Source of the DNA: Candidatus Nanoarchaeia archaeon
GTDB lineage: Archaea; Nanobdellota; Nanobdellia; Woesearchaeales; JANQNE01
Assembly (NCBI GenBank): GCA_028279725.1
Contig: JANQNE010000011.1
Span: 25,872 to 89,871, forward strand
Length of the DNA: 64,000 bases
Reading direction: 5' to 3'
This document shows, in pieces, positions 14,312 to 35,269 of this stretch (positions are counted from its first letter, which is position 1; each line of letters opens with the position of its first letter). A program made the translations under genes and the position numbers. The notes beneath the pieces are model-generated. The model ran no database searches. It saw nothing but the letters and a program-made list of their open reading frames with translations, and was not told the DNA's origin.

Positions 14312-14342
14312 CTTTTTAAATAGAGAGTTCTTGTTTTGTCCT

Positions 14343-16539: not shown

Positions 16540-18120
16540 ATGGCAAAAGAGATAATCAATGATCCTTCTAGGACTTTTATGGAGTATAGATTCCTGCCAG
16601 GAGAGACTCCTCGGGATTGTACACCTGATAAGATCTCTTTAAGAACTCCACTGACAAAGTTTACTAAAGAGAGCGGTATGGAGAGTGCTAAAATCATACT
16701 TAATCTTCCTTTTATGTCTGCTGCTATGCAGTCTGTGACAGGGTCTGGACTTGCGATCGCTTTGGCCCAGAACGGTGGCATTGGTGTGCATTATTGCTCA
16801 CAGCCTGTTGAAGATGAAGCAAGAAAGGTTGCTGAAGTTAAGGGTGCTAAGGCTGGATTTGTAAAGCCAAAGACATTGTCTCCTAATGATACTGTTGAAG
16901 ATGCTTTTGAAAAAGCTGTCAAGGAAGGGTATTCGATATATCCTGTAATAGATGAGAATGGAGTATTGTTGGGTTCTGTAAATGTTAATTATCTTAAGAA
17001 CAGGATGGGAGATGAAAAGATATCTGATGTTATGAGGAAATTTATCCCGAAGGGCCTTGATGAGATAACATCTGAGATGAAAGCTAATAATGCGACAGAT
17101 GAAGAGATAATAAAGACAATAAGAGAATATATCACATTTGCTAAAGTGGGTATTGATTTAGAGGAAGCAAACAGGATCGTGGAGGAGAATAACTCTAAGT
17201 TTATCGCTATTGTCGGAGAGGATAATAAATTACATTCTTTAGTATTCAGAAAAGATATCTATAAGCATATAAGCCATCCTAAGGAGCTTATTGATGCTAA
17301 TAAGAGATATATCTGTGCAGCTGCTATCAATACACATGATTACAAAGAAAGAGTTCCTGCTTTAGTGAAAGCTGGAGTTGATATGATAGTTGTAGATTCG
17401 TCAGACGGCTATACTGAGTGGCAGAAAGAGGCTGTCCAGTTCTGCAAAGGAGAGTATCCGACAATACCTGTTATGGGAGGCAATATAATAACTGCTGAAG
17501 GATTCAGATATCTTGCAGATGCAGGTGTTGATGCTGTAAAGGTTGGAATGGGTGGCGGTTCTATATGTATAACTCAAGAACAAAAGGGGACTGGAAGAGG
17601 ACAGGCTGATGTTGTTGAAGAAGTCTGTGCTGAGAGAGATAAATATTATGAAGAAACAGGTGTTTATATTCCAATTATTTCTGATGGAGGCCATAGTTTT
17701 GCGAAAGATATGACTATGGCTTTGGCTTTTGGTGCTGATGCAATAATGTGCGGAAGGATGTTTGTTGGATGTGAGGAAAGCAATGCTCCGTTCCATCCAG
17801 AAGACAGGAAGTTCAAGCAGTATTGGGGAGAAGGACATTCAAGAGCTAAGGCCTGGAGACAGCAAAGATATGGCCAGGTAAGTTTTGATGAAGGGGTTGA
17901 TGGATTTGTTCCTTTTGTCGGAAAACTTAAGGAAAATGTTCTCGATGATATCACAAAGAAGATGATATCAACGATGGTTACGTGCGGATGCAAGAATCTG
18001 GATGAGCTTCATAAGAAAGCAAGAGTTAAGCTTATCTCTGAGCTTTCTATGAGAGAAGGCAAGCCGCATGATATCATATTACCAGAGAACATGACATATA
18101 AAGCCAGAAGGTGGGGTTGA
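16540..18120 (+). CDS. guaB: IMP dehydrogenase (with CBS pair)
   Basis: LPFMSAAMQSVTGSGLAIALAQNGGIGV (cf. IPLVSAAMDTVTE...GGIGV), catalytic loop GGGSICITQE, and an internal CBS-domain insert. Confidence 0.85.
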   Translation: MAKEIINDPSRTFMEYRFLPGETPRDCTPDKISLRTPLTKFTKESGMESAKIILNLPFMSAAMQSVTGSGLAIALAQNGGIGVHYCSQPVEDEARKVAEVKGAKAGFVKPKTLSPNDTVEDAFEKAVKEGYSIYPVIDENGVLLGSVNVNYLKNRMGDEKISDVMRKFIPKGLDEITSEMKANNATDEEIIKTIREYITFAKVGIDLEEANRIVEENNSKFIAIVGEDNKLHSLVFRKDIYKHISHPKELIDANKRYICAAAINTHDYKERVPALVKAGVDMIVVDSSDGYTEWQKEAVQFCKGEYPTIPVMGGNIITAEGFRYLADAGVDAVKVGMGGGSICITQEQKGTGRGQADVVEEVCAERDKYYEETGVYIPIISDGGHSFAKDMTMALAFGADAIMCGRMFVGCEESNAPFHPEDRKFKQYWGEGHSRAKAWRQQRYGQVSFDEGVDGFVPFVGKLKENVLDDITKKMISTMVTCGCKNLDELHKKARVKLISELSMREGKPHDIILPENMTYKARRWG

Positions 18121-18124
18121 TCTT

Positions 18125-19855
18125 ATGATAACCAAAGAAGCACACCAACATATGAAGGATATCGGTGTTATTGAAGGATTAAATCGTGATATTTCTCAAG
18201 AATATGAGGTAACTTCTTTTGATGAGGCCTTGCTTCCTCTGATAGACAAGAATGATGTTTTGGTTGTAGCAGGCGGTTTTTTTGGTGATGAAGGGAAGGG
18301 AAAGATAACAGATGCTGTTGCTAATCACTCAAAGATCAAACTGATAATGAGATCAAATTCAGGAGAAAATGCAGGCCATACAGTCTATCATGATGGAGTA
18401 AAATATGTTTTCCATGTAGTTCCTTCAGGAATATTAGTTCCAGGCAAGTTAAATCTTATCGGTTCTGAGTGTGTTGTGGATCCTGTAAATCTTATGGGGG
18501 AGCTTTCCCAGCTTACTGAAAGAAATATAGATTACTCTGAAAAACTTTTTATAGCAAATCCACATATTGTCGCTCCATATCATAAGCTGATGGATCTTAT
18601 CCAGACTGCTTCAAATTCCTCCACATTAAGAGGCATATCTCCTATACATGCTTCAAAGGCGAAGAAAAGAGGGTTGAGGCTTGATGACATATACATGCCG
18701 GAAGAACATCAGAAGAAGATCATTGAGAAAGATATGGGAGATTATATCGGATTGATGGAAGTATTGGGAAAAAATCAAGAACAACTGCTGAAGTTTTGTG
18801 AAGAAGTGAATTCTGATGATAATGTTGTCATTCCGGAGCATGTAGTTGGTTTTCTTAAAGCAGATGATAAAGTAAGATATATTGTTGATCTTTTCAGAAA
18901 GACTGTTGTAGAAAATAAGCTCTTTCCTGAAAGGACGAAGAATATGGATCTAGTTGACGATACTTTGGAGAAGGGAGATAAGATGCTTGTTGAAGCAGCA
19001 CAAAGTTTTTTTCTTTCAAATAAGATAAAGACTCATTTCAGATCTGCTACTTCAGCTGATACAAGCGCAAGCGGGACTATCTCTGCAGCTAATTATAATA
19101 TTGCCAAATACAATACAGCAGTCATAAATGTAATCAAATTTGTATCTTCAAGAGTTGGCAGAGGAGAGAATCCTGTCGGTTTTGTGCCGCAGACCTTCTT
19201 TTCAGATCAGGGGATAACCACGTTAAATGAACTGAAAGGTGTGTGTGAAGATTTTGATGAGATACAAAAGCAGTTTATGGATTCTGTTGGAGAGAACGGA
19301 ATCTTGGATCCTACAACCTACAAAGATAAGGATGGAAAAGAGTATCCTATAGTTGTTGCTATGGCTATCGCTTCTTCAAAACACTATGGGGAAAGAGGAG
19401 CTACTACTAAAAAACCAAGGATTACTGGATTTATAGATTGTGTTGCTCATCACCTTGTCAATAAGAAGCAAGGTCCATATCTTTCTATATCTGCTATGGA
19501 TAGAGGAGATGACCTTGATAAAGTGGGATTGGTTATCGCTTATGTTATCTATGTTCCAGAAGGGAAGAGTAATCCTGAGTCTGAAGGAAAAGAATATAAG
19601 ACAGGAGATTTGATAAAAACAGGAGATCCTATGCCTAATGAACAGGTCTTGAAGTATGCTATCCCTATAATAAAAGTTATGAATGGGTGGAAGGACAGCC
19701 CTATTGCTGTTGATAAAAGAAGTGTGGATGACCCATTACCTAAATCAGTCCAGGATTATATTGCTGCATTAGAGCATTTTACTGGAGCTGAAGTTATATC
19801 TATTGGGAATGGAGCTGACACAAAGAACCTGATATACTTGAAAAAGAAAGCTTAA
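18125..19855 (+). CDS. purA: Adenylosuccinate synthetase (unusually long, 576 aa)
   Basis: GDEGKGKITD P-loop-like PurA signature near the N-terminus; the remainder aligns loosely and suggests large insertions relative to ~430-aa (bacterial) or ~340-aa (archaeal) PurA. Confidence 0.7.
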   Translation: MITKEAHQHMKDIGVIEGLNRDISQEYEVTSFDEALLPLIDKNDVLVVAGGFFGDEGKGKITDAVANHSKIKLIMRSNSGENAGHTVYHDGVKYVFHVVPSGILVPGKLNLIGSECVVDPVNLMGELSQLTERNIDYSEKLFIANPHIVAPYHKLMDLIQTASNSSTLRGISPIHASKAKKRGLRLDDIYMPEEHQKKIIEKDMGDYIGLMEVLGKNQEQLLKFCEEVNSDDNVVIPEHVVGFLKADDKVRYIVDLFRKTVVENKLFPERTKNMDLVDDTLEKGDKMLVEAAQSFFLSNKIKTHFRSATSADTSASGTISAANYNIAKYNTAVINVIKFVSSRVGRGENPVGFVPQTFFSDQGITTLNELKGVCEDFDEIQKQFMDSVGENGILDPTTYKDKDGKEYPIVVAMAIASSKHYGERGATTKKPRITGFIDCVAHHLVNKKQGPYLSISAMDRGDDLDKVGLVIAYVIYVPEGKSNPESEGKEYKTGDLIKTGDPMPNEQVLKYAIPIIKVMNGWKDSPIAVDKRSVDDPLPKSVQDYIAALEHFTGAEVISIGNGADTKNLIYLKKKA

Positions 19856-19865
19856 TGGTGAAAAG

Positions 19866-21701
19866 ATGAGTGCTGAAAAGATCCTTGTTTTAGATTTTGG
19901 AGGACAGTACACTCAGCTTATTGCCAAGATTGTGAGGCAGTGCAATGTTTTTTCTGAGATAAAGCCTCATGATTATCATTCTGAAGATATTGTAGGAGAT
20001 AATCCTAAAGGAATTATCTTATCTGGTGGGCCTGACAGTGTTTATGGTGATGGAGCTCCACAAATTGATAGGGAAATTCTTGAGTTAGGTATTCCTGTGC
20101 TAGGAATATGCTATGGCATGCAATTGATCAACTATACTCTGGGTGGTGGGATGATAAGAGGTGGAGATTCTATCAAAGAGTATGGGGAAAGTAGTGTGAT
20201 GGTGGAGAATGAGCATGATCTTTATTCTGGACTTAAAGAAAAGATAACTACCTGGATGAGCCATGGAGACAGTGTTGACGGAGGAGATCTTGCAAAAGGT
20301 TTTAGAGTTATAGGAAGGACTGACAATCATGTAGCTTCTATAGCGAATGATGATAAGAAGATTTATGGTGTACAGTTCCATCCTGAAGTTACTCATACTG
20401 TAAATGGAAAGGATATTGTCTCTAATTTTGTTCATAATATCTGCGGCTGTGGTGATGACTGGAATATGGGGAACTATATCGAGCAGTGCAAGAAATATGT
20501 CCAGAAAACAGTGGGGAAGAATGATGTAATCAATTTTGTAAGTGGTGGAGTTGATTCTACTTTTGTTGCTGCTGTTCTTTCTAAGACTGAGAACATCGGG
20601 AATGTGTATAATGTTTATATCGGAGCTTTGATGAGAAAGAATGAGAATAAAGAAGTTGTTAAAAGTATGGAGAAGGCTGGTGTGAAGAATCTTATTTTTA
20701 AAGAGTGTGAAGACAGGTTTATAGAAGCTGTCAGTAAGATGAGCGATCCTGAAGAGAAAAGGAAAGCTATAGGTGATCTTTTTGGGAAGATAATGCAGGA
20801 AGTGTGTGAAGAACTGAAATTAGATGCTGATAAGACTTTCTTAGGACAGGGGACATTGTATACAGATCAGATAGAAAGTGGCAAAGGTGTTGGTGATAAG
20901 GCTGATAATATCAAGTCTCATCATAATGTGGGATGTCCTTTTATAGAAGATATGAAGAAAAAGGGAAGGCTAGTTGAGCCGAATAATATGATATTCAAGG
21001 ATGAAGTTAGGAAGGCAGCAAAAGAGATAGGATTGCCTGAGTCGATATATGCAAGACAGCCATTTCCTGGTCCTGGAATAGGAATAAGGATTGTTGATGG
21101 TGTTGAGAATGTTGATCTGAGTGAAGTTAATGATAAAGTTAATGAAATTGCTAAGCAAGAGGGGTTGATCGGAGGAGTTGTTCCTGTGAAGACTGTTGGT
21201 GTACAGGGAGATGGAAGAACCTATACTTATCTTGCTGTCTTGAGGGGGGAGAGAAACTGGGATAAGATAAGGAAAGCTGCTAAAAGAATACCTCAGGAAG
21301 TAAGAGAAGTTAACAGGATTGTCTATGACCTGGGTAAGGAAGGAGATATTGATTTCAAAAGTACAGTTTCTACTAAAGTTAGCAGAGAGACTGTCGATCT
21401 GCTTAAGGATGTTGATCTTGAAGGAAGAAAGATAATTGATGAAAATGGTTTTAAGGATATAAGCCAGACAATATTTGTGTTGTTTGGATCTGACATGAAT
21501 AGTAAAGGGAAAAGAAGTGTTGCGTTGAGGGCTGTATCAACAGATGATTTTATGACAGTCAGACCAGTAAAAGTGGGTGATGGGTTCTTATCATGGGAAT
21601 GTCTTCAGCAGATCCATGATGTTCTATTGGATAAGTATAATGTCGGAGCGTTTGTCTATGATGTTACAGACAAGCCTCCTGCAACAACATGCTGGGAGTG
21701 A
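19866..21701 (+). CDS. guaA: GMP synthase (glutamine-hydrolysing), fused GATase + ATP-PPase, bacterial-type
   Basis: ILVLDFGGQYTQLIAKIVRQ (GATase start), catalytic GICYGMQL, PP-loop SGGVDST and a C-terminal dimerisation domain; 611 aa. Confidence 0.85.
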   Translation: MSAEKILVLDFGGQYTQLIAKIVRQCNVFSEIKPHDYHSEDIVGDNPKGIILSGGPDSVYGDGAPQIDREILELGIPVLGICYGMQLINYTLGGGMIRGGDSIKEYGESSVMVENEHDLYSGLKEKITTWMSHGDSVDGGDLAKGFRVIGRTDNHVASIANDDKKIYGVQFHPEVTHTVNGKDIVSNFVHNICGCGDDWNMGNYIEQCKKYVQKTVGKNDVINFVSGGVDSTFVAAVLSKTENIGNVYNVYIGALMRKNENKEVVKSMEKAGVKNLIFKECEDRFIEAVSKMSDPEEKRKAIGDLFGKIMQEVCEELKLDADKTFLGQGTLYTDQIESGKGVGDKADNIKSHHNVGCPFIEDMKKKGRLVEPNNMIFKDEVRKAAKEIGLPESIYARQPFPGPGIGIRIVDGVENVDLSEVNDKVNEIAKQEGLIGGVVPVKTVGVQGDGRTYTYLAVLRGERNWDKIRKAAKRIPQEVREVNRIVYDLGKEGDIDFKSTVSTKVSRETVDLLKDVDLEGRKIIDENGFKDISQTIFVLFGSDMNSKGKRSVALRAVSTDDFMTVRPVKVGDGFLSWECLQQIHDVLLDKYNVGAFVYDVTDKPPATTCWE

Positions 21702-22183
21702 AAATGGGAAAGAAAAAACTAGAATCTATGGTTAAGAGTAGTGTTAAGTATCTGATAGAAGGGGCAGTCTTGGCTGCGAAAGAAAGATATGACGGTGCGT
21801 TAGAACATAGGGCAGCTGAATATGCTGTTGAGAGAGAAGGAAAGCTGACAAAGGACCAATATGAATTCTTATTTCATTGCATACATTGGTTTCTATATTC
21901 AAGCCCTGGAGAATATGGACAAAAGAAGAGGCTTGATCGTACAGATGCAAGGAGAAGTGGTGATAAGCAGTATTGGAAATTGTTGAATCCACGTGAGTTC
22001 TTCAATAATGGCGATGGTCCTAGGAAGGATTTTGATAGGACAATGAACAGATTAGCTGAATGTGCGTATAGGCAGGAGAAAGACTGGTTTGACGGAAGAT
22101 ATGCCAGTTATATGGATAAAGGCGGAGAAATCAACAGAACAGAAAGAGTTAAATTGTTAAAATCACTCGATATCAAAGAGTAG
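21689..22183 (+). CDS. Hypothetical protein
   Basis: 164-aa ORF overlapping the guaA stop by 13 nt and convergently overlapping purM by 21 nt; no recognised motifs. Confidence 0.35.
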   Translation: MLGVKMGKKKLESMVKSSVKYLIEGAVLAAKERYDGALEHRAAEYAVEREGKLTKDQYEFLFHCIHWFLYSSPGEYGQKKRLDRTDARRSGDKQYWKLLNPREFFNNGDGPRKDFDRTMNRLAECAYRQEKDWFDGRYASYMDKGGEINRTERVKLLKSLDIKE

Positions 22184-23281
22184 ATCTTCTTTATCTTTTC
22201 CTTTACTTTTTATTTTTATTTTGTTTTCTTCGATGACTTTGCCTGCAATCTGGGCTTTTATGTTGAACTTTGCTGCTTCCTGGATAACTTTTTCTGGCTC
22301 TGGTGTTATTATTGCTAAGCCTTGGCCCATGTTCCATGTCCTGTATGCTTCTTTGTCTGCTATGTTTCCTAGTTCCTGGCAATATTGCATAGCTTTGCAT
22401 GGTTCGAAAAGATTGTCTAGTTCAGCTCCATAACCTGATGGTTTTAGGACTCTGCCAAGTTTTCCTGGCAATCCGCCTCCTGTGATATGAGAGACACCAT
22501 GGATCTTACAGCATCCTTCTGTCTTGAAACCACCATGCATATGAATAACAGCTTTTGAATATATTGTTGAAGGTATGAGGACTAAATTTCCTAATTTTTC
22601 TCCTTCAAATTCAAAATTGTGCCATTCTGGACCATGTTTTTGTTCAAAAACCTTTCTTGTAAGAGATAATCCGTTTGATCTGAAGCCTTTTTCTTCAAGA
22701 ACAACAACAGAATCTCCTAGCTGAACTTCTTTTCCTGTGAAAAGCTTGTTTTTGTTTGCAAACCATGCTATGCTGGAGCACCAATTGTACTTGAACTTTC
22801 CATAACCACCAACACCATCTCCAAGTTCAGCTAATTCTCCGTTGATTACTGCAACATTTGCTGCATCAGCAGCTTTTACATAGCCTTCTGCAAGTTGTTT
22901 TAGCTGTTCTATGTGTGATTCGTTTTCTTTTCCTAAAGAATTAACGTCAAGAACACTTCCGATAAGGACTGGTTCTGCTCCTCTTACTATTGCATCATCA
23001 CAGACCATTGCAAAAAGATCAAAGGCTATTGTCTTATGGTTGTTCATCCTCTGTGCAATCTCTACTTTTGTTCCGACTCCGTCAAAACCTATGCACATAA
23101 GGCTTCCTTCAGGAAGATTTCCGATGTTAATGGCTCTGACTCCTGAGAAATCATCAAATGGAACGATGATCTCTCCGATATTGCCTTTTCTGTTATCAAA
23201 GGTAAGCTTTGCAGCTTTGTACAATATCTTTGATGCATCATCTCCAAGTTCGATGTTAACTCCTGAGTCTTTATAGTCCAT
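22163..23281 (-). CDS. purM: Phosphoribosylformylglycinamidine cyclo-ligase (AIR synthetase)
   Basis: IGFDGVGTKVEIAQ (DGVGTK) and the PurM-N/PurM-C layout; 372 aa. Confidence 0.85.
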   Translation of the reverse strand: MDYKDSGVNIELGDDASKILYKAAKLTFDNRKGNIGEIIVPFDDFSGVRAINIGNLPEGSLMCIGFDGVGTKVEIAQRMNNHKTIAFDLFAMVCDDAIVRGAEPVLIGSVLDVNSLGKENESHIEQLKQLAEGYVKAADAANVAVINGELAELGDGVGGYGKFKYNWCSSIAWFANKNKLFTGKEVQLGDSVVVLEEKGFRSNGLSLTRKVFEQKHGPEWHNFEFEGEKLGNLVLIPSTIYSKAVIHMHGGFKTEGCCKIHGVSHITGGGLPGKLGRVLKPSGYGAELDNLFEPCKAMQYCQELGNIADKEAYRTWNMGQGLAIITPEPEKVIQEAAKFNIKAQIAGKVIEENKIKIKSKGKDKEDLLFDIE

Positions 23282-23282
23282 A

Positions 23283-24782
23283 TTAACCTCTGTCAGCTTT
23301 CTCCAGCTTTTCTATCTTTTCTTTGTTTTTCTTTTTTATCGCTTTCTGGATCTTCTCATTTGAGAGTCCTAAGATCTGTGCTGCATGTCTTGCTGCATTA
23401 GCAGGTCTTAAGATCAATGAGTTAGAGCTTCCTGGTGGATTCTCTAAGCAAGAAAAGCAATCATCTGCATCAGGAGGACAGCTGATCACTGGGTGAACGC
23501 TGTGGAATGATACAACTCCTGAAAGAGCATCTGTTCCTCCTGCAACAGAGATAAATACAACTGGTTCTTCAGACTGGTTGTATTTGTTTATGATCTCTTC
23601 ACATCTTCTTGGTTGTTTGTGTGCTGAGCAGATTCTTATGACTGATGCCAGTCCGTATTTGTTCAACTCTTCCTGGATCTTTTTCAGATGAGGCATGTCA
23701 CTGTCTGATCCTGCTATGATAACTACTAAGCCACCTTTGATGTATCCTTCTTTTCTTAGCTTTTGGATCATATCTGTGCTTACATCTGACTGAGGGAAAT
23801 TGAACTTATTTCCTGTCAGGCTTTCATATAAACTGATATATCTGTAAGCAACTTCTATTACATCTTTGTCTTCAAGTTCTGGCGGCTTTTCTGTTGATCC
23901 GTAAGCACCATATCCTTTTTCAACAAGAACATCTCTAACGAACTGTTTTGACAGCTCTTTTATCTTTAGCTGTGGTTTTTTCTTAAGAAGTTCTGTTACA
24001 TCTTTGTATCTTCCTGTATCCATCTCTTTCTTTATTCCTGTGTATTTGTTGTATTCTTCTATTGTACAGTATCTTGATGAATCTGGTGTGTTTGCTTCGT
24101 CAATCAGGTTGATCTTTCCTTTTTCGTCGATACCAAACTCATACTTTGTGTCAATGAAGATAAATCCTTTCTGTTCTGCCAGTTTTGATGCACGCTTAAA
24201 TAGTCTTATTGAGATATCTCTGAGCTGTGTTGCCAGTTTTTTTCCAAGCTTATCTGCCATGTATTCAAAGCTTACATTAACATCATGATCTCCATCTTCT
24301 GCTTTTGTAGCTGGAGTAAATAATGGTTCTCTAAGCTTTTGGTATCTTAGCAATGAATCTGAAAGCTTTATTCCGCAGAACTCTCTTTTTCCATCTTCGT
24401 AGTCTGCAGCCATGCTTCCCCAAACATATCCTCTTACAACGAATTCGAATGCAATCTTATTCATCTTTTTCTGGACAATAACATTTCCATGAGGGCTTCT
24501 TATGACAGCGTTTGGAACAATATCTGTTGTGTTGTCAAATGCCCATTGTGCGAAGAGGTTTAATGTTAATCCTTTGAAAGGGATCTGCCTGCTAAGTACA
24601 TGGTCAAAGCAAGATATCCTATCTGATGCCACCATCACTATAGGTTTTCCAACTTTTGGTGATGTAAAATGTACTTCTCTTACTTTTCCTGATTTATGTG
24701 TTCCAAGTTCTGGGATGTATCCTGAGAACAGGGTATTGTCTAAGTTTTCTTTGATTATTTTTTTGTATTTTTGTTCTTCCAT
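23283..24782 (-). CDS. Bifunctional SAICAR synthetase (PurC, long/ADE1-type) + PurE class II (AIR carboxylase) fusion, PAICS-like
   Basis: N-terminal half has SGKVREVH, TKAEDGDHDVNVS and FIDTKYEFG (PurC). C-terminal half has VVIIAGSDSDMPH and CSAHKQP (PurE; SAHK indicates class II). Confidence 0.8.
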   Translation of the reverse strand: MEEQKYKKIIKENLDNTLFSGYIPELGTHKSGKVREVHFTSPKVGKPIVMVASDRISCFDHVLSRQIPFKGLTLNLFAQWAFDNTTDIVPNAVIRSPHGNVIVQKKMNKIAFEFVVRGYVWGSMAADYEDGKREFCGIKLSDSLLRYQKLREPLFTPATKAEDGDHDVNVSFEYMADKLGKKLATQLRDISIRLFKRASKLAEQKGFIFIDTKYEFGIDEKGKINLIDEANTPDSSRYCTIEEYNKYTGIKKEMDTGRYKDVTELLKKKPQLKIKELSKQFVRDVLVEKGYGAYGSTEKPPELEDKDVIEVAYRYISLYESLTGNKFNFPQSDVSTDMIQKLRKEGYIKGGLVVIIAGSDSDMPHLKKIQEELNKYGLASVIRICSAHKQPRRCEEIINKYNQSEEPVVFISVAGGTDALSGVVSFHSVHPVISCPPDADDCFSCLENPPGSSNSLILRPANAARHAAQILGLSNEKIQKAIKKKNKEKIEKLEKADRG

Positions 24783-24806: not shown

Positions 24807-25421
24807 TTATTTTTTGACTATAACTTTTCTTCCTTCAACCTTTATCTTTCCTTCTCCAAAAAGCTGTATAGCTTTAGGGTAAAGCTCTTTTTCTAATGTC
24901 TGGACCTTTTCTTTCAATGAATCTACTGTCTCGTCGTTCTCTATGTCTACTGTTCCCTGCATTATTATAGGTCCTGTGTCCATTCCTTCGTCAACAAAGT
25001 GGATTGTGCATCCGCTGACCTTACATCCATAGTTAAGGATGTCTTCATGTACTGACCTGTCCATTCCTGGGAATGAAGGCAGTAGTGAAGGATGAATGTT
25101 CATTATCCTGTCTTTATATTTGTTTGCAAACCATGGGCTAAAAAGACGCATATAGCCTACAAGGACTAAAAGTTCTACTTCTTCCTGGTCTAAGATCTCT
25201 GCAACTCTTTTGTCGTAGCTTTCTCTTGTGTCTTCATCTTTTTTGTACAATTCTATTCTTGTCTTGAATCCCTGGTTTTGTGCTCTTTCGATAGCATAGC
25301 ATTCTTTGTTTGCTAGGACAATCTTTAATTCTGCATCAAGCTCTTTGTTCTTTATAGCATCCATTATAGCCTGAAGATCTGTTCCGTTTGTTGATGCCAT
25401 TACAGCTATTTTTATCGTCAT
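24807..25421 (-). CDS. purN: Phosphoribosylglycinamide formyltransferase
   Basis: [13 protein letters not shown] and [13 protein letters not shown] (NxHPSLLPxF) motifs; 204 aa. Confidence 0.85.
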
Positions 25422-26287
25422 TTTAGATTATTTTGCATCTTGTATGCAGTTAATGTGTTTTCTAGTAATGATGCTATTGTCATAGGGCCAACTCCACCTG
25501 GAACAGGTGTTATGTGTGAGCATTTGCCTTTTACGTTTTCAAAGTCAACATCGCCTTCAAGATGATATCCTTTTTCTGAGTCATCATCAACTCTGTTAAC
25601 TCCTACATCAATTACTACTGCTCCTTCTTTTACCATATCTGCTGTTACTAGTTTTGGTCTTCCTACTGCTGCAACTAATATATCTGCTGTCTTGCAGATC
25701 TCTGCCATATTTTGTGTTCTTGAATGGCAGATGGTTACTGTTGCGTTTTTTTGGAGTAGTAATGTCGATACTGGTTTTCCTACGATATTGCTTCTTCCTA
25801 TCACAACAGCATGTTTTCCGCTTATGTCTGTTCCAGTTGATTCTATAAGTGTTATTATCCCTTTTGGTGTGCATGAGACAAGGCTATTGTTTCCTGTGAA
25901 TAGATTTCCCATATTTACAGGATGAAATCCATCAACATCTTTCTCTGGGATTATTGTGTTTATGACTTTAGTGTCTGAGATCTGTTTTGGAACAGGCATC
26001 TGGACTAAAATTCCATTGACTGTTTCGTCGTTGTTAAGCTTTTCTATGAGTTTTAGCAGCTCTTCTTCTGGAATGTCTTTATCTAATTCATATTTGAATG
26101 ACTGAATGCCTACTTCTCTGCATTTCACTTCTTTCATGTTGACATATACTTTTGAAGCTGGATTTTCCCCTACTAAAACAACTGCTAATCCTGGCTTTTT
26201 TTCCAGTTGTGAAACTTCTTCTTTGATCTTTTCTCTTATCTCAGCTGAGATCTTGTTTCCGTCTATCAATTCCATTTTATCTATCAC
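25418..26287 (-). CDS. folD: Bifunctional methylene-THF dehydrogenase / methenyl-THF cyclohydrolase
   Basis: [29 protein letters not shown] and [10 protein letters not shown] blocks typical of FolD; overlaps purN by 4 nt. Confidence 0.85.
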
Positions 26288-27445
26288 CTAAAAATGTGCA
26301 AAGCATCTTTCTGTAGTATAGACCATTGCCATATCATGATCATTTGCTGCTTCAACAACCTCTAGGTCTTTTACAGAACCTCCTGGCTGTATTATTGCAG
26401 TTATACCTTGATTTGCTATAAGGTCAACTGAATCTCTGAAAGGAAAGAATCCATCTGATGAGATGACTGCTCCTTTTAGGGGATTTTCTGACAGTTTTTC
26501 TTTTGATGCTATGACATTTAATGAATCATATTCAATATTTTCCCTATCCATTGCTTTTTGGTATGCTTTTAGGATAGCCTGCTCAACAGCTCCAACTCTT
26601 TCTTGCTGTCCTGAGCCTATTGATAGGGAAACACCATTCTTAACAATAACAACACCATTACTTCTTACACCTAGGTTGATGTACCATGATGTTAGCAGGT
26701 CTTGGAGTTCCTGTATTGAAGGCTCTCTTTTTACTGAAACTTCTTTTTCATCTGTGTTTATTGTCGGATGTGTTATAAGATCTGATGGATCTTTTATCTT
26801 GCATAAGTAAGGTTTTTGGATGATTAATCTTCCTGCACCCATTATTTTGACGTCGAAGAGTCCTGTTGTGTCATCTCCAGCAAATTTTGGAACTTTGTCT
26901 AGGTTTTCGAATGTGAGCAGTCTCATGTTTTTCTTTTCGCTCAGGATATCTTCTGCTTCTTTCTGGAATCCAGGAGCTGCAACAGCTTCAACATAGCTTG
27001 TCATTATCTCTTCTGCTGTTTCTTTGTCAACTTCTCTGTTGAAAACTACTACTGAGCCGAATGCACTTCTTGCATCAGCATCTCTTGCATTTTTGTAGAT
27101 GTCTTTCAATGAGTTGTCCTGATATTGAGTTGCAAACCCCGAAGGTATTATGTGTTTCATAACGCAAACTGAAGGATGATTGAAGAACTTCAGTATTTCC
27201 ATAGCTCTTATTACATCCATTACATTTGTTGCTGATAATCCACCTTTTCCTGATTTTAGAAGCTGAATATTTGTAAGGTCAGCTATTGTTGATCCTTTGA
27301 ACTTGTATTCTGCTCCTGGCTGATTTGGATTTTCTCCATATCTTAGATCCATCTCTTTGACTAATTCTAACGGCAGTTCATCCGGATAGTCTCCAGCATT
27401 TACTGTCTTGTACATATTTTTTAGGTCGCTTAAGTTTTCTCCCAT
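26288..27445 (-). CDS. purH: AICAR transformylase domain of PurH, encoded as a separate gene
   Basis: LRYGENPNQ and downstream AICARFT blocks; begins 1 nt after the stop of the IMPCH gene, with its own RBS (GAGGGA). Confidence 0.8.
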   Translation of the reverse strand: MGENLSDLKNMYKTVNAGDYPDELPLELVKEMDLRYGENPNQPGAEYKFKGSTIADLTNIQLLKSGKGGLSATNVMDVIRAMEILKFFNHPSVCVMKHIIPSGFATQYQDNSLKDIYKNARDADARSAFGSVVVFNREVDKETAEEIMTSYVEAVAAPGFQKEAEDILSEKKNMRLLTFENLDKVPKFAGDDTTGLFDVKIMGAGRLIIQKPYLCKIKDPSDLITHPTINTDEKEVSVKREPSIQELQDLLTSWYINLGVRSNGVVIVKNGVSLSIGSGQQERVGAVEQAILKAYQKAMDRENIEYDSLNVIASKEKLSENPLKGAVISSDGFFPFRDSVDLIANQGITAIIQPGGSVKDLEVVEAANDHDMAMVYTTERCFAHF

Positions 27446-27446
27446 T

Positions 27447-28169
27447 CTAATCCCTCTTTATTTCATAGCATTTCTCAAGATCTGCTATCTCTGTTTTTTG
27501 TATCAGCTTATTGACTGATGCCATATAATCTGTTATCATGCTTGATGCTTTTTTTGCCAAGTTAAGGCGAGTTGCAAGTGAGATCGCTCCGTTGTTTGTG
27601 TCTAGTTCTTCAATTAGTGTTTTGTATTCTGACGGATCTGTTATCAATGCAGTGCTTACTAATGCTTTTCTTGCATTATGACTCATGCTTGGCCCTCCTA
27701 CGTCTATATTTTGCCTTAGGATCTCAAAAGTTGAGTCAGGCTTTGCCATCATCTCATCCAATGGATAAAAGTTGACTATTAATGCATTGATGTAGTTGAT
27801 GTTATGTTCTTTCATGAATTCATCGTCTGATTCTGTATGATTGTGTGCTAAAAGTCCTGCATGTATAACTGGATGTAGTGATTTAACTAATCCTGTCTTC
27901 ATCTCAGGGTATTTTGTAACTTCTGAGACTTCTACAACATTAAGCCCTGCTTCTTTTACTATCTTGTATGTTCCTCCTGTTGATATGAACTGGACATCTG
28001 GGTTTTTTTCTGCTATAAAACCTAAAAGTCCGTTTTCTGGAATTCCTTCTATTATTGGTCCATCTTTTCTTTTGTTGGAAACTAATCCTTCTTTGTTTGT
28101 ACAGCTGACCAATACATGCTTTAGCTGTATAAGGTCATCAACTTTTTTTACAAATTCAATTTCAGCCAT
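27447..28169 (-). CDS. purH: IMP cyclohydrolase (MGS-like) domain of PurH, encoded as a separate gene
   Basis: ISTGGT, VSEVTKYPEMKTGLVKSLHPVIHAG and VNFYPL match the PurH N-domain; 240 aa. Confidence 0.8.
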   Translation of the reverse strand: MAEIEFVKKVDDLIQLKHVLVSCTNKEGLVSNKRKDGPIIEGIPENGLLGFIAEKNPDVQFISTGGTYKIVKEAGLNVVEVSEVTKYPEMKTGLVKSLHPVIHAGLLAHNHTESDDEFMKEHNINYINALIVNFYPLDEMMAKPDSTFEILRQNIDVGGPSMSHNARKALVSTALITDPSEYKTLIEELDTNNGAISLATRLNLAKKASSMITDYMASVNKLIQKTEIADLEKCYEIKRD

Positions 28170-28738
28170 TATTTACACCTTATCACTCTTTTTTCGGTAA
28201 TTATCATATCCATCGGGATGTCATAATCTTCTGTTGGTATATTTTTTGTTATCTGTTCTTCAAATGCAAGCCCTATTTTTAGGGAGTTTCTGTCTTTCAG
28301 GAATCTGTCGTAAAAACCTTTTCCGAATCCTATCCTTGCTCCGCTTTGGTCAAAAGCGATGCCTGGGACGAGGACGATGTCCAGGTTTTCTTTGTATTCC
28401 TCTTTTTTGATTGGTTCGAGTACTCCGAAGTTCCCTTCTTTTAGGTCATTGAAGTCAGATAATTTTGATATCTTTATGTTGTTTTCTTCGACAAATGGGA
28501 TGATTACTGTCTTTTGCTGCAGTTGTTCTTTGATTAATTCTATTGTGTTTACCTCACTTTTTAGTGAAAGGTAAGACATCACTATGTTTGCTTTTTTGAA
28601 CTCATCCAGATCTTTTAGATGTTGGATGATTGTCTTGCTTTTTTCTGAGATCTGTTCTTCCGGTATGTTATCTCTTATGGACCTTATGGTGTTTCTGATC
28701 TCTTGTTTGTTTATTCTGTTCATAGTGCGATTCTTCAC
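28169..28738 (-). CDS. 5-formyltetrahydrofolate cyclo-ligase (MTHFS)
   Basis: GARIGFGKGFYDRF (GxGxGyYDR) family signature; 189 aa; overlaps neighbours on both sides. Confidence 0.75.
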   Translation of the reverse strand: MKNRTMNRINKQEIRNTIRSIRDNIPEEQISEKSKTIIQHLKDLDEFKKANIVMSYLSLKSEVNTIELIKEQLQQKTVIIPFVEENNIKISKLSDFNDLKEGNFGVLEPIKKEEYKENLDIVLVPGIAFDQSGARIGFGKGFYDRFLKDRNSLKIGLAFEEQITKNIPTEDYDIPMDMIITEKRVIRCK

Positions 28739-31404
28739 TTTTGCCTATCAAGCTCTTTTTTTGCAATATCTTTTCTAAAAAACATGCCGTCGAAGTTTAT
28801 GTCATTTATTTTTGTGTATGCTGTATCGACGGCATCTTTAAGGGTTGATCCTAATGTGATTACATTTAATACTCTTCCTCCATTTGTGAGGATCTTTCCG
28901 TTATCTTTCTTTGTTCCAGCGTGAATCACCTGTGCTCCACTTATGTTATCTAAACCTTTTATCTCTTTTCCCTTTTCATATGAACCAGGATAACCTCCTG
29001 ATGCTAGTACTATGCTTACGCAGTGTTTTTCAGACCAGTCTAGTTTCATAGCTCCTAGTTTCTTGTCTATTACTGCGTTCATTACGTCAAGTATATCATT
29101 GTTTAATCTTGGAAGGATAACCTGTGTTTCCGGATCTCCAAATCTGCAGTTGAATTCTAAGATCTTTAGGCCGTCTTTTGTTTTCATAAGTCCGACGTAG
29201 AGGACTCCTTTGTATTCTATGCCTTCTGCTTTTGTTCCAGCTATGAATGGCTTAATTATCTTTTCTTCCATCTCTTTTTCAAGTCCGTCTAATATTGGTG
29301 CTGGTGAGTAAGCTCCCATCCCTCCTGTATTAGGGCCTTTGTCTCCTTCATAGATTGGTTTGTGATCCTGTGAATATACCATTGGCTTGAATGTTTCTGA
29401 GTCTACGAAGACTAAGTAGGACCCTTCTTCACCTACAAGACATTCTTCTACAACTATTGATGAAGATGCATCTCCGAATTTGTTTGCTTTTAGGCATTCT
29501 TCTGCAAACTTTACTGCTTCTTCTACTGTGTTTGCGACAAGAACTCCTTTTCCAGCAGCTAGTCCGTCTGCTTTTACGACAATTGGTGCTCCCTGCTTTT
29601 CGATGTATGCTTTTGCTTTTTCAAAATCAGTGAATTCATCAAATTCAACTGTTGGAAGATTATATTTTTTCATGAATCTTCTTGCAAATGCTTTTGATCC
29701 TTCAAACTGTGATGCTTTTTTGTTAGGGCCGAAGACTCTTATCCCTGCTTTTTCAAGTTCGTCAGCTGCTCCGTTAACTAGCGGAGCTTCTGGACCTATG
29801 ATTGCAAGATCTATCTTCTTTTCTTTTGCAAACTTGACTAAAGCTTCATTATCATTTTGGTCGATATCATGACAGCAAGCTACCTGGCCAATACCTGGAT
29901 TTCCCGGGACTGCGTATAGTTTGTTTAATCTGTCAGATTCTGTGACTTTTAATGCAATAGCATGCTCTCTTCCGCCTGAACCAACTATCATTACGTTAAG
30001 TTTGGTGTCTAATGTTGTCTGCTCTTCTGTTCTCTGGCAACCAAGGCATTGCTGCTGTGATTCTGATACTGGTTCTGGGTATTCTCCTGTTAAACATGCC
30101 ATACATACATCCCTCCTTGTAGCATTCTTGATATTATCAACTGTTGCATATACTAAATTATCTGCTTCAAGATATTCTCTTATCTGTTCTATTGATTTAT
30201 CTGAAGCTATAAGCTCTTTTTTTGTCGCCATGTCTATCCCATAGAAGCATGGGAATTTTATAGGAGGACAAGCAGAAACAAATGTAACTTTTCTAACTCC
30301 TCCATCTTTTAATGTTCTTACTATCCTTTTTGATGTTGTTCCCCTTACAATGCTGTCATCAACTACAGCAACACTCTTGTTTTCAAGTATACTTATTACA
30401 GGCCTTAGTTTTCTTCTTACTGAGTCATGCCTTGTCTTTTGTGATGACATTATGAATGTTCTTTGTATATATTTATCTTTGATCAGACCTTCCCTATATT
30501 TTACAGCAAGATCTTCACTTAATTTTATAGCAGCTGTCCTTCCTGAATCTGGAACTGGGACTACAACATCGATGTCTTTTTGGTCCATCTGCTCGCTCAT
30601 CAGTTTTCCAAGAGCTAATCTTGTCTTGTATACTGATCTGTTCTCTATCATGCTGTTCGGGCTTGCAAAATATATCCATTCAAACATACAATGAGCTTTT
30701 TTCTCCTGTTTTAGGATCTTGCTTTCTATAACCAAGTCTTTTGAGATAAAAACAGCTTCTCCTGGCTCTATATCTCTGACATAATCATGATCAATAACCT
30801 GAAATGCTACAGTTTCTGAAGCAAATATGTATGAATCTCCTCTCTTTCCGAGAACTAAAGGCCTTATGCCTCTTGGATCTCTTATCGCGAATATACCTTT
30901 GTCTGCTATCATTCCAACAATTGAGTAAGCTCCTCTTACCTTATCCATGAAGTGCTTTGCAGCTGCAAAGAAATCTCCATGCTGTTCGTAATGCTCTGCG
31001 AATATTCTTAGAAGAACTTCACCGTCAACAGAGGTTTCAAGATGTTTTCCTTTTTTTTGGAATTCTTCTTTTAGGTCGAAGTAGTTTATTGTGTTTCCGT
31101 TCTGAGCCATAGCAACTTTTGGGTTGATCTTTGTTGTAAGAGGTTGTGCGTCGCACAACATTCCTTTTCCCTGTGTTGCATATCTTGTGTGGCCGATGCC
31201 CATCTTCCCTTGTAATAGGTTTGCGTCTCTTGCCTTGAATACTCTGTGAACAGCATCCATCTCTTTTTTTGTGAAGAATTCGTCTTTTACGTTTGTTACT
31301 ATGCCGCATGCATCCTGGCCTCTATGCTGCAATGACATCAAGCTAGTTACTGCATCCTCAAAAACTTCATCATCTTTTGAAACAATACCAATAATTCCGC
31401 ACAT
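28735..31404 (-). CDS. Fusion of amidophosphoribosyltransferase (PurF, Fe-S type) and phosphoribosylamine--glycine ligase (PurD)
   Basis: N-terminus MCGIIGIV (Ntn Cys1), PRTase VVDDSIVRGTTS, Fe-S ligand regions CMFEWIYFASP and CMACLTGEYP. After a short linker comes LNVMIVGSGGREHAIALKV (PurD start) and the ATP-grasp C-terminal half. 889 aa. Confidence 0.85.
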   Translation of the reverse strand: MCGIIGIVSKDDEVFEDAVTSLMSLQHRGQDACGIVTNVKDEFFTKKEMDAVHRVFKARDANLLQGKMGIGHTRYATQGKGMLCDAQPLTTKINPKVAMAQNGNTINYFDLKEEFQKKGKHLETSVDGEVLLRIFAEHYEQHGDFFAAAKHFMDKVRGAYSIVGMIADKGIFAIRDPRGIRPLVLGKRGDSYIFASETVAFQVIDHDYVRDIEPGEAVFISKDLVIESKILKQEKKAHCMFEWIYFASPNSMIENRSVYKTRLALGKLMSEQMDQKDIDVVVPVPDSGRTAAIKLSEDLAVKYREGLIKDKYIQRTFIMSSQKTRHDSVRRKLRPVISILENKSVAVVDDSIVRGTTSKRIVRTLKDGGVRKVTFVSACPPIKFPCFYGIDMATKKELIASDKSIEQIREYLEADNLVYATVDNIKNATRRDVCMACLTGEYPEPVSESQQQCLGCQRTEEQTTLDTKLNVMIVGSGGREHAIALKVTESDRLNKLYAVPGNPGIGQVACCHDIDQNDNEALVKFAKEKKIDLAIIGPEAPLVNGAADELEKAGIRVFGPNKKASQFEGSKAFARRFMKKYNLPTVEFDEFTDFEKAKAYIEKQGAPIVVKADGLAAGKGVLVANTVEEAVKFAEECLKANKFGDASSSIVVEECLVGEEGSYLVFVDSETFKPMVYSQDHKPIYEGDKGPNTGGMGAYSPAPILDGLEKEMEEKIIKPFIAGTKAEGIEYKGVLYVGLMKTKDGLKILEFNCRFGDPETQVILPRLNNDILDVMNAVIDKKLGAMKLDWSEKHCVSIVLASGGYPGSYEKGKEIKGLDNISGAQVIHAGTKKDNGKILTNGGRVLNVITLGSTLKDAVDTAYTKINDINFDGMFFRKDIAKKELDRQK

Positions 31405-31406
31405 TT

Positions 31407-32231
31407 TTATCTATCCTTAAAATAGTCAACAGCATTCTGGAAAATCCTGAAGTTTGAGCTAATTAAATCAGGGATCTCTTTGTTTTCTCTTTTAGCGATC
31501 TCTTTTTTCAGATGGAATTCCGGCTCGCTGATTGAGTATATTGCTCTTTCTGGATGAGGCATCATTCCCATTAGCCTTCCAGTCTTGTCGCAGATAGCTG
31601 CTATATCATTTAAAGCTCCATTAGGGTTGATAGGGTAAACATTTTCTGCATCATCTCCTGCTTCATTGCAGTACGTGAAAACTATCTGGTTGTTCTTTTT
31701 TAATTCTTCAAGTGTGTTTTTATCGCATGTGAATCTTCCTTCTCCATGAGCTATAGGGAGATGTGTCTGTTCTATTCCTTTTGTGAATATACAATTAGAA
31801 TTGTTGTTTTTTATGTTTACCCATAAGCATTCATATCTGTTGCTTGTGTTTGATTCTAATGAGCTGATTCTTTTTCCGTAGTCTCCATCTGTAGCGAATA
31901 ATCCTAAATGGGTCATGACCTGGAATCCGTTGCAGACTCCGAGTATCAATTTTCCTGAGTTTATGAACTCTAAAAGATCTTCCCAAAGGTTGTTTTTTAT
32001 CTTGTTTGCAAAAGCATTTCCTGAACCTGTGTCATCTCCATACGAGAATCCTCCTGGAAACATAATTATATTGTAGTCAGACATCTTTTTCTTTTTTGAG
32101 ATAAGGTCGTTTATGTGGACAATTTCGCATTCAGCTCCTGCTTTTTCAAAAGCATGAGCACTTTCTTTCTCGCAGTTGATCCCATATCCTGACATAATCA
32201 ATACTTTTGGTATCATATTAATAGTCCTCAA
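31407..32231 (-). CDS. purQ: FGAM synthase glutaminase subunit
   Basis: Class I GATase catalytic GVCNGFQ and HGEGRF; 274 aa; overlaps the purL stop. Confidence 0.85.
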   Translation of the reverse strand: MRTINMIPKVLIMSGYGINCEKESAHAFEKAGAECEIVHINDLISKKKKMSDYNIIMFPGGFSYGDDTGSGNAFANKIKNNLWEDLLEFINSGKLILGVCNGFQVMTHLGLFATDGDYGKRISSLESNTSNRYECLWVNIKNNNSNCIFTKGIEQTHLPIAHGEGRFTCDKNTLEELKKNNQIVFTYCNEAGDDAENVYPINPNGALNDIAAICDKTGRLMGMMPHPERAIYSISEPEFHLKKEIAKRENKEIPDLISSNFRIFQNAVDYFKDR

Positions 32232-35214: not shown

Positions 35215-35269
35215 ATATAAATATTATGGCTACCAGCCAGTACTAAAGATATACTCAAGAATATAGTTT

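What the first reader, a model, noticed from the sequence alone, without database searches (positions are those of the whole stretch)
23283..24782. PAICS-like bifunctional PurC-PurE with class II PurE signature (SAHK), explaining absence of purK
The N-terminal long-form SAICAR synthetase is fused to a PurE whose active-site loop reads CSAHKQP (class II AIR carboxylase) rather than SAHRTP (class I N5-CAIR mutase). Domain order and class match eukaryotic PAICS. No purK is present in the operon, which is consistent.
Basis: partly seen in the sequence, partly recalled or inferred. Interest (0 to 1): 0.5.

Follow-up and report, generated by a model that had tools for sequence, protein, structure and literature searches.

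The report
Archaeal fused PurC–PurE purine enzyme
A tiny-genome (DPANN) archaeon encodes a single protein that joins two consecutive purine-synthesis enzymes, as animals do, and its carboxylase half looks like the ATP-free animal type, which would explain why the helper gene purK is missing; it is a real but previously uncharacterised variant of a known design.

Summary
Window 23283-24782, on the minus strand, is one 499-aa ORF: an N-terminal long-form SAICAR synthetase (PurC, about residues 1-345) fused to a C-terminal PurE domain (352-499) that reads RICSAHKQP.

The PurE domain is closer to characterised class II AIR carboxylases (T. denticola PurE, human and silkworm PAICS) than to class I mutases in sequence, profile and predicted fold.

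It sits in a 12-gene purine operon that encodes every step to IMP except PurK. No purK occurs in the 64-kb window or in about 190 kb around the same gene in about 10 related genomes. The rest of this genome could not be searched.

- It is not an orthologue of animal PAICS. The PurC half is the mycobacterial/yeast type, and the PurE half lies outside the metazoan clade.
- The PurE belongs to a distinct, uncharacterised class-II-like sub-clade. Its substrate loop is an invariant AGGTDAL, where canonical class II has AGRSN(G/A)L. AIR carboxylase activity is therefore inferred, not shown.

The same fusion occurs in Woesearchaeota/Nanoarchaeota, a Patescibacteria MAG and myzozoan alveolates.

It is a moderately interesting new variant of a known kind.

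The parts
23283..24782 (-). purC-purE fusion gene, 499 aa plus stop
   Evidence: Single ORF. Identical to database protein P0001. More than 100 homologues have the same length and architecture.
23748..24782 (-). SAICAR synthetase (PurC) domain, long form, residues 1-345
   Evidence: PF01259 E 1.6e-51. NF009251 272 bits over residues 18-335. Best PDB sequence matches are M. abscessus PurC at 1.9e-41 and yeast Ade1 at 3e-37. Foldseek TM 0.83 and 35% identity to 3r9r/6yvq.
23958..24047 (-). About 30-aa insertion (residues 246-275) relative to mycobacterial PurC, conserved across the family
   Evidence: The HMMER alignment to 3r9r breaks between residues 245 and 276. K273 is invariant and K246, M254, P270 and L272 are nearly invariant. 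Modelled as helices.
24132..24152 (-). DTKYEFG motif of the PurC active site, residues 211-217
   Evidence: D211, T212, K213, E215, F216 and G217 are invariant in 53 family members. Aligned to DTKFEFG of M. abscessus PurC.
23286..23729 (-). PurE (AIRC) domain, residues 352-499
   Evidence: PF00731 E 6.2e-30. Best PDB matches are T. denticola class II PurE at 3.5e-24 and human PAICS at 9.5e-22, against E. coli class I at 3e-5. Foldseek rmsd 1.4 A to 3rg8.
23697..23711 (-). G358-S-D-S-D362 phosphate/ribose-binding loop
   Evidence: Aligns with human PAICS G273-S-T-S-D277. The human residues are listed as active-site residues in PMC9376930. S359, S361 and D362 are invariant.
23616..23627 (-). S386-A-H388-K389 '40s loop': catalytic His plus the class-II-type Lys
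   Evidence: Invariant in the family. Equivalent to human S301-A-H303-K304. Class I has Arg at this position (PMC10484210).
23523..23543 (-). A414-G-G-T417-D418-A-L420 '70s loop', a variant of class II AGRSN(G/A)L
   Evidence: Motif table. T417 and D418 are invariant and G416 nearly so. These correspond to human R331, S332 and N333.
23472..23489 (-). V-I-S-C435-P-P437 motif, shared with class II and absent from class I
   Evidence: class II has VI(A/S/N)CPP, class I has V(I/L)(A/G)VPV.
23421..23441 (-). N448-P-P-G-S-S-N454 loop, signature of the sub-clade (class I and II have MPxG)
22163..23281 (-). purM, immediately downstream (makes AIR, the PurE substrate)
   Evidence: AIRS and AIRS_C domains; TIGR00878 E 3.8e-58.
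24807..37227 (-). Rest of the co-directional purine operon: purN, folD, purH (AICARFT), purH (IMPCH), MTHFS, purF-purD, purQ, purL, an unknown ORF, purB
   Evidence: purB matches TIGR00928 at 368 bits, above the cut-off of 326.
16540..21701 (+). Convergent guaB-purA-guaA cluster (IMP to GMP and AMP)
   Evidence: IMPDH, Adenylsucc_synt, and GATase plus GMP_synt_C.

Best explanation
The gene encodes a bifunctional enzyme for two consecutive steps of de novo purine synthesis. The C-terminal PurE domain most likely carboxylates AIR, made by the neighbouring purM product, directly with CO2 to give CAIR. This is class-II-type chemistry (EC 4.1.1.21). His388 acts as the proton acceptor, Ser386 holds the imidazole, Asp362 holds the ribose, and Ser359, Ser361 and Lys389 hold the phosphate. 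The N-terminal long-form PurC domain then ligates CAIR to aspartate using ATP to give SAICAR (EC 6.3.2.6). Direct carboxylation needs no N5-CAIR, so no PurK is required, and the operon encodes a complete 10-step route to IMP. Shown: the domains, the conserved catalytic residues, the affinity to class II, the operon context and the local absence of purK. Inferred: the actual substrate (AIR plus CO2 rather than N5-CAIR), an octameric PurE core, and any hand-over of CAIR between the domains.
For: Domain calls. PDB sequence search of the PurE domain gave class II enzymes at 1e-24 to 1e-20 and E. coli, B. anthracis and A. aceti-type class I enzymes at 1e-5 to 1e-2. Profile-profile comparison scored this sub-clade at 264 against class II (43% identity) and 120 against class I (27%); the query averages 36% identity to class II and 27% to class I. 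The predicted fold has pLDDT 92.3 and pTM 0.87. Its C-domain superposes on T. denticola AIR carboxylase at 1.4 A (TM 0.88-0.91), and on class I at 2.2-2.5 A. SAHK, GSxSD and CPP are invariant across 53 family members. The residue roles come from human PAICS (PMC9376930), and the Arg-to-Lys class difference from PMC10484210. Every other step to IMP is encoded in one cluster at 16.5-37.2 kb. No PurK lies in the window. None lies in about 190 kb flanking the same fusion in about 10 other genomes. The probe did find a true PurK beside a class I PurE in control locus L048. There is precedent for class II PurE without PurK in a bacterium (T. denticola) and in Archaeoglobi (PMC3261824).
Against: The 70s loop is AGGTDAL, not the AGRSN(G/A)L of all biochemically characterised class II enzymes. 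The Arg that approaches the AIR phosphate in human PAICS is Gly here, as in class I. No member of this sub-clade was found to have been assayed. The Lys/Arg signature is not a perfect class marker: hybrids with SAHRTP plus a class-II-like remainder exist. Only 64 kb of a contig of at least 240 kb was available, so a distant purK cannot be excluded. The PurE-domain tree is poorly resolved, with the sub-clade at 65% bootstrap.
Confidence: 0.78

Rival explanations
1. The PurE domain works as a class-I-type N5-CAIR mutase. [quoted passage not shown]
For: Gly416 occupies the position of the class II Arg, as in class I AGGAAHL. Many archaea lack PurK whatever their PurE class, so absence of PurK does not prove class II (PMC3261824). 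The genome outside the 64 kb is unseen.
Against: Lys389, the CPP motif, overall sequence, profile and fold all sit with class II. The class I His of the AAH loop is absent, with Asp418-Ala419 in its place. No PurK was found in any of about 10 related loci, whereas it was adjacent to the class I PurE in the control.
Confidence: 0.15
2. The PurE domain is catalytically dead and serves only as an oligomerisation scaffold for PurC. CAIR would be made by another protein.
For: Degenerate PurE' domains do exist in related double-PurE proteins.
Against: All catalytic and ligand-binding residues (S359, S361, D362, S386, H388, K389) are invariant across archaeal, bacterial and eukaryotic members. No other PurE is encoded in the window.
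Confidence: 0.04
3. The fusion is an artefact: an assembly chimera, a lost stop codon between two genes, or eukaryotic contamination.
For: The closest non-prokaryotic relatives are eukaryotic, at about 50% identity.
Against: More than 100 independent clusters from many samples share the same length and architecture. One is in a closed 919-kb archaeal genome, with archaeal-type histone-fold, aIF5A and ribosomal L37e genes next to it. The gene packs tightly into its operon, with an SD-like motif upstream and a 1-nt gap to purM. The fold is modelled confidently as one chain.
Confidence: 0.01

Closest known systems
Metazoan PAICS (human 2h31/6yb8, Bombyx 4ja0)
   Same: Same two activities in one chain and the same order (N-terminal SAICAR synthetase, C-terminal PurE). 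The PurE has the SAHK and CPP motifs. These are the best whole-chain Foldseek hits, at E about 1e-26.
   Different: The PurC domain is a different type: PAICS N-domains match at E = 0.016 or not at all. The protein is about 75 aa longer. The PurE lies outside the 100%-supported metazoan clade. The 70s loop is GTD rather than RSN. The modelled relative domain orientation differs: rmsd about 23 A and TM 0.42-0.52 over the whole chain.
Treponema denticola PurE (3rg8/3rgg), the characterised bacterial class II AIR carboxylase
   Same: The closest solved structure to the C-domain: 37-38% identity, rmsd 1.4 A, TM about 0.9. It shares SAHK, ALSG and CPP, and it comes from an organism without purK.
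   Different: It is a stand-alone 159-aa protein with loop AGRSNAL and MPSG, where this protein has AGGTDAL and NPPGSSN.
Long-form microbial SAICAR synthetases (M. abscessus PurC 3r9r/6yvq; yeast Ade1 1a48)
   Same: The best sequence and fold matches of the N-domain: E 1e-41, 35% identity, TM 0.83. They share the GKVR, SDRISxFD, DTKxEFG and TPDSSR motifs.
   Different: They are stand-alone enzymes. This protein has a conserved insertion of about 30 aa (residues 246-275) and the C-terminal PurE fusion.
Archaeoglobus class-II-like PurE without PurK (Brown et al. 2011, PMC3261824)
   Same: An archaeal precedent for a class-II-like PurE in a genome lacking purK, also suggested to have moved by transfer involving eukaryotes.
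   Different: It is not fused to PurC. That survey found no archaeal PurC-PurE fusion and calls the fusion a eukaryotic feature. I did not compare the sequences directly.
Other prokaryotic PurC-PurE fusions with a canonical class II loop (P0162, P0172, P0192, P0194)
   Same: Same architecture, about 500 aa, alignable full-length. They are the nearest outgroup of this family.
   Different: Loops AG(R/M)S(N/D)xL and MPSG. About 30-35% identity. Source organisms not identified.

Membership tests
PurE superfamily (AIRC, PF00731) | PurE alpha/beta fold with a domain-level HMM match | tested here: met
   PF00731 at 104 bits against a cut-off of 30. Foldseek TM 0.88-0.91 to 3rg8.
Class II PurE (AIR carboxylase, EC 4.1.1.21) | Universally conserved catalytic His and Ser in the S-A-H motif | tested here: met
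   S386 and H388 are invariant. Their roles are described in PMC9376930.
Class II PurE (AIR carboxylase, EC 4.1.1.21) | Lys after the catalytic His (SAHK), where class I has Arg (SAHR) | tested here: met
   K389. The class difference is stated in PMC10484210.
Class II PurE (AIR carboxylase, EC 4.1.1.21) | 70s loop A-G-R-S-N-(G/A)-L, as in all characterised members (human R331, S332, N333) | tested here: not met
   The loop is A-G-G-T-D-A-L, invariant within its own sub-clade.
Class II PurE (AIR carboxylase, EC 4.1.1.21) | V-I-x-C-P-P motif, where class I has V-x-G-V-P-V | tested here: met
   VISCPP at residues 432-437.
Class II PurE (AIR carboxylase, EC 4.1.1.21) | Closer overall to characterised class II than to class I enzymes | tested here: met
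   phmmer 1e-24 against 1e-5. hhalign 264 against 120. Rmsd 1.4 against 2.2-2.5 A.
Class II PurE (AIR carboxylase, EC 4.1.1.21) | No purK in the genome | tested here: inconclusive
   None in the 64-kb window or in about 190 kb of related loci.
Class II PurE (AIR carboxylase, EC 4.1.1.21) | Uses AIR plus CO2 and does not use N5-CAIR | not testable with these tools
   Requires an enzyme assay or complementation.
Metazoan-type PAICS | N-terminal SAICAR synthetase and C-terminal AIR carboxylase in one chain | tested here: met
Metazoan-type PAICS | SAICAR synthetase domain of the PAICS type | tested here: not met
   The N-domain matches 4ja0 only at E = 0.016 and human PAICS not at all, against mycobacterial PurC at 1.9e-41.
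Metazoan-type PAICS | PurE domain within the PAICS clade | tested here: not met
   The metazoan clade has 100% bootstrap support and excludes the query. The query lies in a separate GTD-loop clade.
Metazoan-type PAICS | Octamer built on a PurE core, with a route for CAIR between the active sites | not testable with these tools
   Only a monomer model was made. Its domain orientation differs from PAICS chains.
SAICAR synthetase (PurC, EC 6.3.2.6) | PF01259 domain with conserved nucleotide- and CAIR-binding motifs | tested here: met
   PF01259 at 175.7 bits. GKVR, DRxSxFD, DTKxEFG and TPDSSR are invariant.
SAICAR synthetase (PurC, EC 6.3.2.6) | Reaches the curated score of an NCBIfam equivalog model | tested here: not met
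   The best is NF009251 at 272 bits against a cut-off of 371, then NF010568 at 239 against 251. The domain is divergent, which is probably why public records name it only generically.

The most novel reading that the evidence does not exclude
The AGGTDAL/NPPGSSN PurE domains are a third, mechanistically distinct PurE class. For example, they may bind the substrate phosphate or CO2 differently because the class II Arg-Ser-Asn triad is replaced. In this reading, a single fused purC-purE gene carrying this domain moved between ultra-small prokaryotes (DPANN archaea, Patescibacteria) and the ancestor of myzozoan alveolates, independently of the animal PAICS fusion.
Probability: 0.2. Interest if true: 0.65.

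Novelty: new variant of a known kind. Interest (0 to 1): 0.4.

Why it matters
The AIR-to-CAIR step is the textbook divide between animal and microbial purine synthesis, and class I PurE and PurK are pursued as antimicrobial targets for that reason.

- A large family of fused PurC-PurE enzymes carrying a class-II-like PurE, found in archaea, candidate-phyla bacteria and alveolate protists, blurs that divide.
- The PAICS-style fusion appears to have arisen more than once.
- The family offers a natural variant (Gly-Thr-Asp in place of Arg-Ser-Asn) for asking which residues set the choice between AIR/CO2 and N5-CAIR.
- DPANN archaea are usually described as unable to make purines. Some Woesearchaeota nevertheless carry a complete, compact, ATP-saving pathway.

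Tried and rejected
- **Plus-strand reading:** rejected because the frame is full of stops.
- **Retrieving the window's own 240-kb contig:** The look-up of encoding contigs on P0001 found no record, so a whole-genome purK search was impossible.
- **purK candidates:** the two ATP-grasp proteins in the window are Ddl-like and RimK-family. The weak PurK-probe hit in related locus L010 is PurT (TIGR01142, 515 bits).
- **L048:** tblastn had joined adjacent ORFs into an apparent fused relative. It is separate PurC, class I PurE and PurK genes, and it served as a positive control.
- **PurE-domain NJ tree:** the first run timed out. The re-run resolves only a few clades, so placement rests more on the profile and fold comparisons.
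- **Literature:** the T. denticola PurE paper is not held. No paper was found on the closed relative genome, on PurC-PurE fusions in archaea or bacteria, or on this enzyme in alveolates. One search was swamped by 'Purcell'.
- **RNA elements:** Rfam found no riboswitch or other RNA element in the operon.

Full report
**Observation.** The coordinates delimit a real gene, but on the minus strand. Window 23283..24782(-) is an uninterrupted 499-codon ORF with an ATG start. The plus-strand frame is full of stops. A GGAGG motif lies about 5 nt upstream of the ATG, and the stop codon is 1 nt from the ATG of the next gene, purM. The protein is identical to a public sequence (P0001) from a 240-kb contig.

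**Domains.** Pfam finds SAICAR_synt at residues 30-267 (E 1.6e-51) and AIRC at 353-489 (E 6.2e-30). NCBIfam long-form PurC models align over residues 18-335 but stay below their curated cut-offs (272 bits against 371). Against solved structures, the N-domain matches Mycobacterium abscessus PurC (1.9e-41) and yeast Ade1 (3e-37). It matches the N-domain of insect PAICS only at E = 0.016 and that of human PAICS not at all. So 'long-form SAICAR synthetase' is correct, but it is not the PAICS kind of PurC. A conserved insertion of about 30 residues (246-275) interrupts the alignment to mycobacterial PurC.

**Class of the PurE domain.**
- The PurE domain alone matches T. denticola class II PurE at 3.5e-24, human PAICS at 9.5e-22 and Bombyx PAICS at 1.5e-19.
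- E. coli, B. anthracis and related class I enzymes reach only 1e-5 to 1e-2. M. jannaschii, T. maritima and C. burnetii PurE are intermediate, at 1e-14 to 1e-11.
- In a motif table of 134 PurE domains, it shares VIxCPP with class II, where class I has VxGVPV.
- Mean identity is 36% to 47 canonical class II domains and 27% to 6 class I domains. Profile-profile scores are 264 against class II and 120 against class I.
- An AlphaFold2 model built on 53 homologues is confident (pLDDT 92.3, pTM 0.87). Its C-domain superposes on T. denticola AIR carboxylase at 1.4 A (TM 0.88-0.91) and on class I structures at 2.2-2.5 A.

**What does not fit canonical class II.** Human PAICS active-site residues are G273-S-T-S-D277, S301-A-H303-K304 and V328-A-G-R331-S332-N333-G-L335 (PMC9376930). 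Here the first two segments are conserved, as G358-S-D-S-D362 and S386-A-H-K389. The third reads V-A-G-G416-T417-D418-A-L.

This is not noise. T417 and D418 are invariant, and G416 nearly so, in 53 family members from three domains of life. A search of 1.84 billion cluster representatives, followed by alignment, shows a coherent sub-clade with the motifs AGSDSD / CSAHKQP / AGGTDALSG / V(I/V)SCPP / NPPGSSN. It is distinct from canonical class II (MGSxSD / SAHK / AGRSN(G/A)L / MPSG).

The sub-clade occurs in several architectures:
- stand-alone PurE of about 155-190 aa;
- PurC-PurE of about 500 aa;
- PurE-PurE' doubles;
- larger fusions.

It groups at 65% bootstrap inside the class-II-like radiation in a weakly resolved NJ tree. 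The metazoan PAICS clade sits elsewhere at 100%. I found no report of an assayed member. AIR carboxylase activity is therefore a well-supported inference, not a demonstrated fact.

**purK and pathway context.** The gene is the eleventh of twelve co-directional genes spanning 37227 to 22163: purB, an unknown ORF, purL (998 aa with an N-terminal extension), purQ, a purF-purD fusion, MTHFS, purH-IMPCH, purH-AICARFT, folD, purN, purC-purE and purM. A convergent guaB-purA-guaA cluster lies at 16540-21701. Every step to IMP is present except PurK.

Pfam scans of all 44 remaining ORFs of at least 100 aa revealed only two other ATP-grasp proteins. One is Ddl-like. The other is RimK-family and scores 24 bits on the purK model, whose cut-off is 318.

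It found:
- one true PurK, in L048 beside a class I PurE (411 bits on the PurK model), which serves as a positive control;
- one PurT, in L010;
- nothing in any locus carrying the GTD-type fusion, about 190 kb in about 10 genomes.

The rest of this genome could not be retrieved. Genome-wide absence remains untested.

**Who has it, and relation to PAICS.** Close homologues (60-85% identity) come from Woesearchaeota and Nanoarchaeota MAGs. One lies in a closed 919-kb genome, where it sits in purL-purQ-purCE-purM next to histone, aIF5A and L37e genes. The window's own gene content is consistent with an archaeon of this group: class I LysRS, a diphthamide-synthase domain, and a 102-nt tRNA that ARAGORN misses.

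A 64%-identical copy lies in a Patescibacteria MAG among RF-1, EF-Ts, RRF and MreBC genes. Full-length homologues at about 50% identity are eukaryotic. Every named one is a myzozoan alveolate: Vitrella, Amoebophrya (a tandem double), Heterocapsa, Yihiella and Selenidium.

In a full-length NJ tree (491 columns, 200 bootstraps), rooted on PurC-PurE fusions with canonical class II loops, the eukaryotic clade (93%) and the DPANN/CPR clade (66%) are sisters at a 97% node. The fusion therefore has a single origin within this family. It was exchanged across domains, and it is independent of the animal PAICS fusion, which has a different PurC type and a different PurE clade. The direction of transfer is unresolved.

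**Whole-chain fold.** PAICS chains are the top Foldseek hits (E about 1e-26). The whole-chain rmsd is about 23 A with TM 0.42-0.52. Both domains match, but their modelled relative placement differs. A monomer model cannot address the octamer.

**Mechanism proposed.** PurM makes AIR. The PurE domain adds CO2 at C4. In this scheme His388 removes the C4 proton, backbone amides of the 40s and 70s loops hold the new carboxylate, and Lys389, Ser359 and Ser361 hold the phosphate, by analogy with PMC9376930. The PurC domain then phosphorylates CAIR with ATP and condenses it with aspartate. PurB, encoded upstream in the operon, carries out the next pathway step.

Skipping PurK saves one ATP per purine but needs ample CO2. 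Brown et al. use this argument for PurK-less archaea (PMC3261824).

**Novelty.** Class II PurE in prokaryotes and PurC-PurE fusion in animals are both known. The 2011 archaeal survey found no archaeal fusion and calls it a eukaryotic feature. The proteins are already in public databases under generic names such as 'AIR carboxylase family protein'. I found no paper describing this fusion in archaea, in CPR bacteria or in alveolates, or the GTD-loop sub-clade. The held library is incomplete.

I rate it a new variant of a known kind, of moderate interest. DPANN archaea are usually described as lacking de novo purine synthesis. The compact operon with several fusions is itself worth noting.

Noticed in passing
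window 28735-31404 (-): PurF (amidophosphoribosyltransferase) and PurD (GAR synthetase) are fused in one 889-aa protein, joining steps 1 and 2 of the pathway. The same fusion (891 aa) is in L002/L008, but the genes are separate (461 + 431 aa) in L001.
   Followed up: partly
window 32218-35214 (-): PurL is 998 aa, with an N-terminal extension of about 230 aa plus an FGAR-AT linker domain, as in 'large' PurL. PurQ is still a separate gene and no purS ORF was seen. The same form of about 960-990 aa occurs in L001, L004, L005 and L006.
   Followed up: partly
window 26288-28169 (-): PurH is split into two adjacent ORFs, IMP cyclohydrolase/MGS (240 aa) and AICAR formyltransferase (385 aa), 1 nt apart. 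The same split occurs in L005, so it is probably not a sequencing error.
   Followed up: partly
window 25418-26287 and 28169-28738 (-): FolD and 5-formyl-THF cyclo-ligase are embedded in the purine operon, alongside PurN and a bacterial-type PurH. This gives a folate-dependent C1 supply in a DPANN archaeon.
   Followed up: no
window 14331-16424 (+): A 697-aa protein joins an AsnB-like glutamine amidotransferase/asparagine synthase to a diphthamide-synthase (PF01902) domain. It may be a glutamine-dependent diphthine amidation enzyme.
   Followed up: no
window 18125-19855 (+): Adenylosuccinate synthetase is 576 aa, about 150 aa longer than usual. The HMM match is broken into 2-3 stretches, which implies large insertions.
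   Followed up: no
window 47677-48759 (+): Three small acidic paralogous ORFs (49, 49 and 57 aa) share a YSEDGRE.L.D..EMT.EEA.FMQGY-like motif. They lie in a 1.4-kb stretch with no larger ORF and no Rfam match.
   Followed up: no
window 59835-59936 (+): Rfam calls a tRNA (51.6 bits) that spans 102 nt, and ARAGORN finds no tRNA in the window. It is probably an intron-containing archaeal tRNA.
   Followed up: partly
window 7748-14311: A cluster holds a D-Ala-D-Ala-ligase-like ATP-grasp protein, two paralogous LPG_synthase_C-like proteins, a GNAT, and a RimK-family ligase with its Zn-protease partner. This points to possible peptide or cell-envelope chemistry that is unusual for an archaeon.
   Followed up: no
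window 41910-45212 (+); also 21689-22183 (+) and 35270-35704 (-): A 1100-aa ORF has no Pfam match. Two small unknown ORFs are wedged inside the purine gene cluster.
   Followed up: no
related proteins P0121, P0057, P0065, P0067, P0079: Further fusion variants of the same family exist: a tandem double PurC-PurE-PurC-PurE in Amoebophrya (1068 aa), PurN-PurC-PurE (711 aa), and proteins of about 750-830 aa that add a PurQ-type GATase_5 domain to PurC-PurE (N-terminal, PurQ-PurC-PurE, in the 797-aa P0065).
   Followed up: partly
related proteins P0133, P0136, P0137, P0141, P0151; P0175, P0184, P0197, P0215, P0222: GTD-type PurE also occurs as PurE-PurE' doubles with a degenerate second domain, recalling the Methanobacteria PurE-PurE'. 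A separate group combines a class-I-like SAHRTP with class-II-like GLSDALSG and CPP motifs; one cluster member is from Nitrososphaeria. The Lys/Arg signature alone is therefore not a safe classifier.
   Followed up: no
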